Below, in pieces: positions 23,009 to 23,210 of a stretch of 64,000 nt of DNA (positions are counted from its first letter, which is position 1; the number at the start of each line of letters is the position of its first letter). The stretch spans positions 28,189-92,188 of the forward strand of contig CAYWPM010000009.1 in NCBI GenBank assembly GCA_964460235.1. Reading direction: 5' to 3'. Origin of the DNA: an uncultured Sediminibacterium sp. GTDB lineage: Bacteria > Bacteroidota > Bacteroidia > Chitinophagales > Chitinophagaceae. The translations under genes were made by a program, and so were the position numbers. The notes below the pieces were generated by a model. That model made no database searches and was not told the origin of the DNA. It saw only the letters and a program-made list of their open reading frames with translations.

Positions 23009-23048
23009 AAAAAAGCCAAGCGGTCTACTCTTCGTAGCGCCTGGCTTT
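23009..23048 (-). terminator. Leader terminator/attenuator hairpin ahead of the transfer operon
   Basis: AAAGCCA/TGGCTTT, GCG/CGC and CTAC/GTAG stems, with a T6 tail on the minus strand, about 25 nt before the first start codon. Confidence 0.55.
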
Positions 23049-23140
23049 GTTAACCAAATTCGAACACGTCAATATATGCCTGATTAAGCAACATAGAAAG
23101 GAGTTGTATTTCGCTCGATTCTATGATATACATATCTTTG

Positions 23141-23210
23141 ACGTGGCGTTAAGGGTCTCAAGCTTAGTGCGCCACTCGGCTCATATGTCTTCGGATGTAT
23201 GGGCTTTTTT
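23141..23210 (+). ncRNA. Candidate ~70-nt small RNA
   Basis: TATCTTTG -7 box at 23133-23140; GTGGCG/CGCCAC hairpin with GGTCTCAAG loop; 11-bp stem with C(UUCG)G loop, three G-U pairs and a T6 tail. Confidence 0.6.

What the first reader, a model, noticed from the sequence alone, without database searches (positions are those of the whole stretch)
23009..23210. Small antisense RNA plus leader terminator that may gate the transfer operon
A plus-strand unit has a -7 box, a hairpin exposing GGUCUCAAG, and a C(UUCG)G terminator whose three G-U pairs only work on this strand. About 100 nt away, a minus-strand terminator precedes the operon and contains AGACC, complementary to the loop GGUCU. The layout is analogous to antisense-triggered attenuation (P1 C4, P4 CI, pT181), but it is not shown to belong to those families. 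The minus-strand promoter was not identified.
Basis: partly seen in the sequence, partly recalled or inferred. Interest (0 to 1): 0.6.

Follow-up and report, generated by a model that had tools for sequence, protein, structure and literature searches.

The report
Small RNA–terminator switch before mobilisation operon
Upstream of the DNA-transfer genes of a mobile island in a Chitinophagaceae bacterium lie a likely ~70-base RNA gene and a terminator hairpin that change together across related islands, so they probably form an undescribed RNA switch on those genes, but no expression data confirm it.

Summary
The plus-strand unit (consensus -7 box, hairpin, strong strand-specific terminator) and the minus-strand hairpin plus U-run 28 nt before the operon's first start codon each fold far better than shuffles (z about -4.6). 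No Rfam family matches.

Comparison adds the main result. In 13 related Chitinophagales islands an orphan two-hairpin terminated unit faces away from the same operon (13/13). In 11/13 a hairpin sits just before the operon's first start codon, with a good U-run in 8. The 100-150 nt between them is an imperfect palindrome. Its outer arms tie the small RNA's first hairpin to the flank and 5' arm of the terminator, and they co-vary locus by locus (0 of 20,000 permutations).

If the operon transcript starts beyond the small-RNA gene, this is a countertranscript-driven attenuator of the pT181/pCF10 type. In silico the free leader captures the terminator arm in 7/11 loci, and blocking the antisense target restores the terminator in 10/11.

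The operon promoter is not located. Rivals remain open: a terminator-arm mimic, a DNA-level symmetric control region, or a single-strand DNA hairpin. The close relatives needed for a finer test could not be fetched.

The parts
23133..23140 (+). -7 promoter box TATCTTTG of the candidate small RNA
   Evidence: Read; exact match to TAnnTTTG. The same box type (TATTTTTG) lies at the same distance from the U-run (71/72 nt) in L032. It lies within the only block conserved with L032.
23143..23175 (+). Hairpin 1 of the candidate small RNA (stem GUGGCG/CGCCAC, conserved loop AAGGGUCUCAAGCUUAG)
   Evidence: Fold. blastn gives 77% over 81 nt (E 6e-9) and 83% over 53 nt against L032/L036, where neighbouring proteins are only 19-32% identical.
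23178..23210 (+). Intrinsic terminator of the candidate small RNA (UUCG loop, three G-U pairs, U6)
   Evidence: An orphan plus-strand terminator preceded by a hairpin is found at the equivalent place in 13/13 related loci.
23009..23048 (-). Leader hairpin plus U6 (terminator/attenuator) 28 nt before the first start codon of the operon
   Evidence: -20.7 kcal/mol, z -4.57. A hairpin at the same place occurs in 11/13 related loci, with at least 6 U in the next 8 nt in 8 of them and the start codon 25-44 nt downstream in 9.
23031..23176 (.). 146-nt imperfect palindrome joining the terminator 5' arm to hairpin 1
   Evidence: Folds as one long hairpin at -44.1 kcal/mol, z -4.15, 0/200 shuffles. The same holds in all 11 loci. 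The arms co-vary: cognate versus non-cognate similarity gave 0/20000 permutations.
23160..23175 (+). Segment Y in the small RNA (AAGCUUAGUGCGCCAC)
   Evidence: Resembles the flank plus 5' arm of the leader terminator (AAGC-CAG-GCGCUAC, plus-strand coordinates 23034-23047).
23065..23078 (-). Mirror copy of the small-RNA promoter region (CATATATTGACGTG), degenerate as a -7 box
   Evidence: Inverted repeat I7, CACGTCAA/TTGACGTG; alignment. The A-to-T change in L032 (GTCGTG) occurs in both arms.
23092..23125 (.). Central palindrome CATAGAA...TTCTATG at the tip of the long hairpin
   Evidence: the repeat finder I3. Central palindromes of different sequence occur in the other loci.
22696..22983 (-). 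orf95, first gene of the operon
   Evidence: Its stop TAA lies 1 nt before the ATG of the next gene. A small ORF occupies the same position in most related loci, and the C-terminal G.GYA motif is shared with L023, L024, L029 and L033.
17768..22694 (-). Regulated operon: 372-aa membrane protein, 248-aa protein, type IV coupling protein, 182-aa protein, MOBP-type relaxase
   Evidence: Pfam and NCBIfam hits. The gene order is conserved in L022-L026.
23240..23247 (-). Weak candidate -7 box (TTGATTTG, 5/6) for an operon promoter upstream of the small-RNA gene
   Evidence: Not conserved in L032, so this is speculative.

Best explanation
The 202-bp stretch 23009-23210 is a control module at the head of the mobilisation operon (orf95, 372-aa protein, 248-aa protein, coupling protein, 182-aa protein, relaxase) of a tRNA-linked integrated mobilisable island.

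Shown from sequence and comparison:
- A strong promoter-hairpin-terminator unit on the plus strand, predicted to give a ~65-70 nt RNA.
- A terminator hairpin on the operon strand just before the first start codon.
- A co-varying long-range complementarity between the complement of the small RNA's first hairpin and the flank plus 5' arm of that terminator.

Inferred mechanism: the operon transcript starts to the right of the small-RNA gene, so its leader contains the complement of the small RNA. In the free leader that segment pairs with the 5' arm of the terminator through the long imperfect hairpin. This acts as an antiterminator and RNA polymerase reads into the operon. When the small RNA is abundant it binds its perfect complement in the nascent leader. 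The terminator arm is then released, the terminator forms and transcription stops before orf95.

This is countertranscript-driven attenuation, as in pT181, pIP501 and the pCF10 Anti-Q/IRS1 system. It would keep the transfer genes silent by default.
For: 1. The structures are real and strand-specific.
2. The architecture is conserved while the sequence is not. Orphan plus-strand two-hairpin units occur in 13/13 related islands and leader hairpins in 11/13, spaced 115-173 nt apart.
3. The small-RNA promoter and hairpin 1 are the only DNA conserved with L032/L036, whose adjacent proteins are 19-32% identical.
4. Similarity between hairpin 1's 3' part and the terminator's flank plus 5' arm is cognate-specific: mean score 8.4 against 5.4, 0/20000 permutations. 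The control with the 3' arm shows nothing. For the whole unit the scores are 42.7 against 22.6, 0/20000.
5. The similarity extends into the unpaired loop of hairpin 1 and the unpaired flank of the terminator. This is expected if the two segments pair within one transcript, and a local stem alone does not explain it.
6. In a modelled long leader the MFE structure captures the terminator 5' arm in 7/11 loci, including this window. The terminator-forming alternative is only 0.2-5.9 kcal/mol above the MFE. Blocking the 75 nt complementary to the small RNA restores the terminator in 10/11.
7. The mirror copy of the small-RNA promoter is degenerate as a promoter (TATA-TTG here; TATACT deleted in L029). 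This fits selection for pairing only.
8. The terminator sits 28 nt from the ATG, so the operon promoter must lie upstream of it.
9. Precedents: the pCF10 Anti-Q/IRS1 system (PMC3181467), and RteR of CTnDOT, a small RNA in the same phylum thought to cause premature termination in a transfer operon (PMC3809561).
Against: - No operon-strand promoter was found to the right of the small-RNA gene. There is only a 5/6 box here (23247-23240), no consistent box across loci, and nothing conserved with L032.
- In several loci (found by scan in L025, L029 and L034; by eye in L031) a minus-strand terminator lies 50-80 nt beyond the plus terminator. That leaves little room for a promoter.
- In 4 loci (L022, L030, L032, L034) 5/6 -7-like boxes lie inside the left arm, 19-33 nt before the leader hairpin. 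That would make the two transcripts divergent rather than overlapping.
- The long hairpin shows no strand bias: energies are equal on both strands, and there are 5 versus 4 strand-specific wobble positions.
- In this window alone the inverted repeat is weak (z 1.1). The case rests on the family.
- Three of 11 leader hairpins lack a good U-run.
- There are no expression data, and only one close relative for compensatory-change analysis.
Confidence: 0.37

Rival explanations
1. Divergent small RNA that mimics the terminator's 5' arm (antitermination). The operon promoter lies inside the palindrome, so the two RNAs do not overlap. Segment Y of the small RNA has the same sequence as the terminator's flank plus 5' arm. 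It competes for the 3' arm and U-run of the nascent leader, prevents the terminator from forming and switches the operon on. Alternatively it titrates a factor that binds Y on the leader.
For: - The small RNA's 3' half pairs with the leader's 3' arm plus tail much better in cognate than in non-cognate pairs: -11.6 against -8.3 kcal/mol, p 0.00015.
- -7-like boxes (5/6) lie 19-33 nt before the leader hairpin in L022, L030, L032 and L034.
- Minus-strand terminators just beyond the plus unit in several loci argue against a long leader.
Against: - Y is sequestered in the small RNA's own stem.
- The similarity that extends into the terminator's non-pairing upstream flank (for example ATCTG in L029, GGTG.AGC in L031, TAGCTGG.AAC in L030) has no partner in the 3' arm.
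- The rest of the palindrome needs a separate explanation.
- No 5/6 box lies in the left arm of this window.
- I know of no precedent for this mechanism.
Confidence: 0.2
2. DNA-level symmetric control region. Two back-to-back promoters share a central operator and mirrored flanking sites bound by one island- or host-encoded regulator. The plus-strand promoter is simply capped by an insulating terminator in front of the variable cargo, so its short RNA has no function. The leader hairpin is a 5' stabiliser or basal attenuator.
For: - The palindrome is equally good on both strands and mismatches show no wobble bias.
- Central palindromes such as TTGACA-N6-TGTCAA in L029 look like operators.
- The genes beyond the plus terminator are unrelated cargo (STAND NTPases, unknowns), so an insulator makes sense.
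- The leader hairpin sequence CCGGACAUCG-NAA-GAUGUNCCGG is conserved in six loci, as a protein site could be.
Against: - Arms of 50-70 nt co-vary along their whole length with bulges and indels. That is unusual for protein sites.
- The outer repeat coincides with the 5' arm of the leader terminator in 8 of the 11 loci, which a DNA site does not explain.
- The half-site arrangement differs between the two hairpins (arms swapped, spacers of 3-4 versus about 20 nt).
- The hairpin type does not track the small first ORF family.
- Hairpin 1 is conserved at 83% where the proteins are below 32%.
Confidence: 0.2
3. Single-strand DNA hairpin used after transfer (a single-strand origin or Frpo-like element). 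In the transferred strand the palindrome folds and rebuilds the plus-strand promoter as a duplex. RNA polymerase then makes a primer RNA for complementary-strand synthesis in the recipient.
For: - A long imperfect palindrome with an intact promoter in one arm and a pairing-only mirror copy in the other.
- It sits next to a mobilisation operon, like ssoU beside mobM in pMV158, and ICEBs1 has an sso (both from my own knowledge, not checked here).
Against: - A strong intrinsic terminator directly after the promoter in 13/13 loci is not expected for a primer or an early-gene promoter.
- The overlap with the leader terminator is unexplained.
- The better oriT candidate lies 5 kb away at 17690-17732, and the transferred strand is unknown.
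- No sso consensus motifs were identified.
Confidence: 0.08
4. Two unrelated terminators with no coupling and no small RNA function: the apparent module is a coincidence of module boundaries.
Against: Family-level co-variation, positional conservation in 11-13 loci, and nucleotide conservation of hairpin 1 with L032.
Confidence: 0.08

Closest known systems
Countertranscript-driven transcription attenuation of plasmid rep genes (pT181 RNAI/repC leader; pIP501 RNAIII)
   Same: A small two-hairpin antisense RNA with its own promoter and terminator is encoded inside or next to the leader. An intrinsic terminator sits just before the regulated start codon. An upstream leader segment is complementary to the terminator's 5' arm (the preemptor) and is also the antisense target. 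pT181 uses a kissing-hairpin contact (PMC3753616); the Novick 1989 reference is cited in PMC3181467.
   Different: There is no sequence or Rfam relationship. The host is Bacteroidota, not Firmicutes. The target is a mobilisation operon of an integrated island, not a replication gene. The antiterminator is a 100-150 nt palindrome that includes the antisense promoter. Overlap of the two transcripts is not shown.
pCF10 prgQ/prgX: Anti-Q RNA and the IRS1 terminator
   Same: An antisense RNA sets how far transcription extends past a terminator into conjugation genes. Convergent promoters face each other across the leader (PMC3181467).
   Different: pCF10 couples this to a pheromone-sensing repressor and to a long overlapping prgX transcript processed by RNase III. 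None of those parts is seen here. The two systems are not homologous.
[quoted passage not shown]
   Same: Same phylum. A ~90-nt constitutive small RNA on a transferable element is thought to cause premature termination in the transfer operon (PMC3809561).
   Different: According to that review, RteR is encoded downstream of exc, acts in trans inside the tra operon and does not affect the mob operon. Here the RNA gene abuts the leader of the coupling-protein/relaxase operon. The sequences could not be compared because none was held.
FinP/traJ of F-like plasmids
   Same: A ~80-nt, two-stem-loop antisense RNA controls conjugation genes (from my own knowledge).
   Different: FinP covers the traJ ribosome-binding site and blocks translation. 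Here the RNA gene ends 160 nt or more from the nearest start codon and the associated element is a terminator.
P1/P7 C4 and P4 CI immunity RNAs
   Same: Small RNAs that act on upstream leader sequences to stop expression of downstream genes.
   Different: These are processed from the same transcript as their targets. Rfam's C4 family does not match. Nothing here suggests processing.
sgm-sRNA of Salmonella Genomic Island 1
   Same: An integrative mobilisable element needs a self-encoded small RNA, encoded beside its mobilisation genes, for transfer. A terminator-like sequence near its promoter is thought to be regulatory (PMC9299015).
   Different: It derives from the 3' end of a longer primary RNA, is required for transfer rather than repressing it, and its mode of action is unknown. 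The sequence and host are unrelated.

Membership tests
Countertranscript-driven transcription attenuators (pT181 / pIP501 / pCF10 type), functional class | Small antisense RNA gene with its own promoter and terminator, on the strand opposite the regulated gene | tested here: met
   -7 box at 23133-23140, hairpin 1 and terminator at 23178-23210. Equivalent units occur in 13/13 loci. Transcription itself is not shown.
Countertranscript-driven transcription attenuators (pT181 / pIP501 / pCF10 type), functional class | The sense leader is transcribed across the antisense gene (overlapping transcripts) | tested here: inconclusive
   No consistent operon-strand promoter was found on either side. This needs 5' end mapping.
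Countertranscript-driven transcription attenuators (pT181 / pIP501 / pCF10 type), functional class | Intrinsic terminator in the leader just upstream of the regulated start codon | tested here: met
   23048-23009, -20.7 kcal/mol, U6, 28 nt before the ATG. A strong U-run is present in 8/11 related loci.
Countertranscript-driven transcription attenuators (pT181 / pIP501 / pCF10 type), functional class | The antisense target is complementary to the terminator's 5' arm (mutually exclusive antiterminator) | tested here: met
   Cognate-specific similarity, 0/20000 permutations. The MFE captures the arm in 7/11 loci; blocking the target restores the terminator in 10/11. This is in silico only.
Countertranscript-driven transcription attenuators (pT181 / pIP501 / pCF10 type), homology | Sequence/structure match to the described RNAs | tested here: not met
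   cmscan against all 4227 Rfam families gave no gathering-score hit in this region. At E up to 10 there were only three chance-level hits to unrelated families.
Phage C4/CI antisense RNA (Rfam C4 family) | Match to the covariance model | tested here: not met
   No hit.
FinP-type antisense control | Antisense RNA overlaps the ribosome-binding site or start codon of the regulated gene | tested here: not met
   The RNA gene spans 23143-23210. The nearest start codons are 22983 (minus strand) and 23466 (plus strand).
Single-strand origins / Frpo-like single-strand promoters | Long imperfect palindrome that rebuilds a promoter as a duplex in single-stranded DNA | tested here: inconclusive
   The palindrome with the -7 box paired to a mirror copy is present. 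The terminator directly after it and the unknown transferred strand argue against, and function is not testable here.
oriT of the island | Inverted repeat next to a nic motif recognised by the MOBP relaxase | tested here: inconclusive
   No shared nic-like motif was seen by eye beside the leader hairpins. A better candidate (GGGGATGTATCCCC, 17719-17732) lies just 3' of the relaxase gene.
MITE / repeated palindromic element | Multiple copies in the genome | tested here: not met
   One copy in the 3.5-Mb assembly. None in 200 genomes of the family at DNA level.

The most novel reading that the evidence does not exclude
The 200-bp palindromic module works in two physical states. In double-stranded, integrated DNA it makes a small RNA that holds the mobilisation operon off. 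In the transferred single strand it folds into a hairpin that rebuilds the same promoter and primes complementary-strand synthesis in the recipient. This would be a single-strand origin fused to an antisense switch, a combination I know of in no phylum, and neither part is described in Bacteroidota to my knowledge.
Probability: 0.07. Interest if true: 0.8.

Novelty: new variant of a known kind. Interest (0 to 1): 0.55.

Why it matters
Little is known about how integrated mobilisable islands of environmental Bacteroidota decide when to express their coupling protein and relaxase. In this window the island carries Shedu-, Gabija- and RloC-like defence genes, according to earlier unchecked notes of this scan.

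The only RNA regulator described for transfer in this phylum is RteR of CTnDOT, and its mechanism is unresolved (PMC3809561). A conserved small RNA plus terminator module whose parts co-evolve would be, to my knowledge, the first antisense-attenuator-type control of DNA transfer described outside the Gram-positive plasmids.

It also offers 11-13 natural, mutually divergent versions of one design. That is useful for testing how such switches keep their specificity, and as orthogonal parts.

The claim is directly testable with one Northern blot, one 5' end mapping and a few reporter mutants.

Tried and rejected
**Searches for closer relatives, mostly empty**
- blastn against plasmids: no match.
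- DNA search in 200 genomes of the family: only chance matches of 19-31 nt.
- The search for related loci with the 372-aa protein in genome contigs: nothing.
- Exact-pattern scans for the conserved loop: genome contigs gave L036, which is L032, plus two chance hits. Metagenome contigs gave four chance hits in GC-rich coding DNA.
These are the sequences most needed for compensatory-change analysis.

**Wider sampling did not extend the architecture**
- In Bacteroidia outside the order, the operon usually abuts a tRNA gene and that tRNA's terminator.
- The more distant Chitinophagales homologues (E 1e-20 to 1e-11) lack the architecture, except L078.

- Rejected as chance. It is not conserved in L032, and the window holds no significant trans target for the loop: 3 matches against 1.8 expected.

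**Promoter hunting**
- TAnnTTTG scans on the operon strand, to the right of the small-RNA gene and inside the palindrome, were inconclusive.

**Strand assignment of the long hairpin**
- Wobble counting was inconclusive: 5 minus-type, 4 plus-type, 4 transversions.

**General small-RNA/leader duplex energies**
- Only weakly cognate-specific (p 0.035).

**Other readings rejected**
- Invertible promoter: the repeats are imperfect and the enclosed segment is itself nearly symmetric, so inversion would change little.
- oriT and MITE readings: see the membership tests.
- The 75-aa plus-strand ORF at 23047-23274 was judged spurious because it runs through both hairpins.

Full report
**Context**

The window comes from a 3.5-Mb assembly. 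Its family is probably Chitinophagaceae: locus L032, from a genome of the same family, is identical to L036, a record titled "Chitinophagaceae bacterium".

A tRNA gene at 16622-16694 follows asnS and marks one end of an integrated island. A minus-strand operon runs from 22983 to 17768. It encodes orf95, a 372-aa membrane protein, a 248-aa protein, a type IV coupling protein (T4SS-DNA_transf, E 7e-45), a 182-aa protein and a MobA/VirD2-type (MOBP-like) relaxase.

The finding lies in the 482-bp gap between orf95 and the divergent 273-aa gene at 23466. orf95 is likely a real gene. Its TAA stop lies 1 nt before the next ATG. Most related islands have a small ORF in the same position, and some share its C-terminal G.GYA motif.

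- The plus strand has the -7 box TATCTTTG at 23133-23140. Hairpin 1 follows at 23143-23175, with the loop GGUCUCAAG at 23154-23162. The UUCG terminator lies at 23178-23210 and has three G-U pairs and U6.
- The 78-nt unit folds at -29.8 kcal/mol (z -4.64, 0/200 shuffles). Its complement folds at only -15.3. The terminator is also called by the consensus scan.
- On the minus strand, 23048-23012 plus U6 folds at -20.7 kcal/mol (z -4.57). This hairpin contains AGACC.
- Rfam has nothing here, either at gathering score or at E up to 10.
- The proposed GGUCU/AGACC contact is about what chance gives (roughly 0.16 expected). It is absent from the one close relative.

**Related islands**

The operon core (372-aa protein, 248-aa protein, coupling protein, 182-aa protein, relaxase) recurs in other Chitinophagales. 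It was found in 7 of 401 order-level and 9 of 401 family-level genomes sampled (counts include this genome), at 17-32% protein identity. In the 13 loci compared (this window plus 12 related loci):

- All 13 have an orphan plus-strand terminator preceded by another hairpin, pointing away from the operon. Ten of 13 fold better on that strand, by a mean of 3.9 kcal/mol.
- Eleven have an operon-strand hairpin just upstream of the operon's first start codon. In 9 of them the first suitable ATG is 25-44 nt downstream. In L030, which has no small ORF, the hairpin sits directly before the 372-aa homologue.
- Eight of the 11 have at least 6 U in the next 8 nt.
- The genes beyond the plus terminator are unrelated cargo, such as STAND NTPases. 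The unit therefore belongs to the mobilisation backbone.
- Strict -7 boxes lie 71-82 nt before the U-run here, in L032 and in L025. Several other loci show TTGACA-N16-17-TAnnnT instead (read by eye).

**Conservation**

Between this window and L032, the only significant non-coding similarity is an 81-nt block (77%, E 6e-9) covering the small-RNA promoter and hairpin 1.

Over 7.5 kb against 8 kb, the only blastn hit is 53 nt at 23132-23183 (83% identity). The flanking proteins are 26-32% identical by local tblastn alignment and 19% for the 372-aa protein in the full-length alignment.

The terminator stems are completely different between the two loci. That pattern is expected for a functional RNA gene.

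**Coupling of the two elements**

The 3' part of hairpin 1 (part of the loop plus the 3' arm) resembles the flank plus 5' arm of the leader hairpin read on the other strand. It does so in a locus-specific way:

| Locus | Small-RNA copy | Leader copy |
|---|---|---|
| L029 | ATCTGGTTGGACACCG | ATCTGACCGGACACCG |
| L025 | AAGCCAATCCACA | AAGCCAAGCCACA |
| L022 | AGCTTTTACCG | AGCTTTTACCG |
| this window | AAGCTTAGTGCGCCAC | AAGC-CAG-GCGCTAC |

- Cognate pairs score 8.4 and non-cognate pairs 5.4 (0 of 20,000 permutations). The 3' arm gives no signal.
- The whole stretch between the two elements is an imperfect palindrome. It folds as one long hairpin in all 11 loci. Here the 146 nt fold at -44.1 kcal/mol, z -4.15.
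- The palindrome includes a mirror copy of the small-RNA promoter (23065-23078) that is degenerate as a promoter.
- One double change relative to L032 (GACGTG to GTCGTG) is present in both arms.

**Mechanism**

The co-variation means the two segments pair in one molecule, or are read by one factor. The single explanation that covers most features is a countertranscript attenuator.

In that model an operon transcript starting beyond the small-RNA gene carries the complement of hairpin 1. This complement pairs with the terminator's 5' arm. The small RNA binds the complement and frees the arm.

I modelled this leader for all 11 loci:
- The MFE has the arm captured by the far-upstream segment in 7 loci, including this window.
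- The two states differ by only 0.2-5.9 kcal/mol.
- Masking the 75 nt complementary to the small RNA restores the terminator in 10 of 11 loci.
- For this window the MFE (-55.6 kcal/mol) is the antiterminated form and the centroid is the terminated form.

These results are in silico and follow partly from the palindrome itself.

**What weakens the model**

- I could not find the operon promoter. To the right of the small-RNA gene there is only a 5/6 box here (23247-23240). There is a strict box 24 nt beyond the U-run in L033, and nothing consistent elsewhere.
- Several loci have a minus-strand terminator 50-80 nt beyond the plus terminator.
- Four loci have 5/6 boxes inside the left arm, close to the leader hairpin. 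That would make the transcripts divergent.
- The long hairpin has no strand preference.
- In this window alone the repeat is not significant (z 1.1).

**Rivals**

- If the transcripts are divergent, the same co-variation means the small RNA carries a copy of the terminator's 5' arm and could compete for the 3' arm. Cognate pairs give -11.6 kcal/mol and non-cognate pairs -8.3, p 0.00015. This would be an antitermination or decoy model.
- A purely DNA-level reading is a symmetric divergent-promoter region with an insulating terminator.
- A single-strand DNA hairpin reading treats the palindrome as an sso- or Frpo-like element.
- I rate these 0.20, 0.20 and 0.08, against 0.37 for attenuation and 0.08 for no coupling at all.
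- An oriT role is unlikely. A better inverted repeat lies next to the relaxase gene at 17690-17732.
- A MITE is excluded by copy number.

**Comparison with known systems**

In function the nearest systems are pT181/pIP501 attenuation and pCF10 Anti-Q/IRS1 (PMC3181467, PMC3753616). In the same phylum the nearest is RteR of CTnDOT (PMC3809561). SGI1's sgm-sRNA shows that a mobilisable island can depend on its own small RNA (PMC9299015).

None is homologous to this module. The overlap of transcripts, which defines the attenuator class, is untested.

This scan has proposed a similar antisense-controlled leader before integrase genes of Chloroflexota elements (earlier finding e1-2304372). That is an analogy on other DNA and not independent support.

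**Limits**

There are no expression data. Only one close relative was available. Promoter rules for these elements are uncertain.

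Noticed in passing
window 17690-17701 and 17719-17732: Two short palindromes (TCGCCATGGCGA and GGGGATGTATCCCC) lie just 3' of the MOBP-type relaxase gene. They are a better oriT candidate for the island than the stretch studied here. TATCCCCG resembles the RP4-type nic core, from my own recollection.
   Followed up: partly
window 22696-22983 and the small ORFs of L022-L034: The first small ORF of the operon comes in at least two unrelated families at the same position. One has a C-terminal G.GYA motif (window, L023, L024, L029, L033). 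The other is a helical type ending LL..Y..L (L025, L031, L032). L030 has none. The family does not track the type of leader hairpin.
   Followed up: partly
L046, L047, L048, L050, L056, L068 (upstream of the 372-aa homologue): In Bacteroidia outside Chitinophagales the same operon often starts right next to the 3' end of a tRNA gene. There the island is oriented the other way round at its attachment site and has no small-RNA unit.
   Followed up: no
L025, about 60-110 nt to the right of its plus-strand terminator: A strict -7 box (TATATTTG) is followed at once by a hairpin and U-run on the operon strand. This may be a second short terminated unit. Similar minus-strand terminators sit beside the plus unit in L029, L031 and L034.
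   Followed up: no
L022, L028, L029, L030, L031, L034 leader hairpins: Six islands with very divergent proteins share nearly the same leader hairpin, CCGGACAYCG-(GNRA-like loop)-GRUGUNCCGG. This is more conservation than a plain terminator needs.
   Followed up: partly
L036 (8 kb around the L032 unit): tblastn with the window's coupling protein found no match downstream of the 248-aa homologue within the 8 kb held. That island may carry a different coupling protein or gene order.
   Followed up: no
window 23009-23017 and 23202-23210: Both outward-facing terminators end in the same nine bases (GGCUUUUUU). The symmetric unit therefore spans exactly the coordinates of the finding.
   Followed up: no
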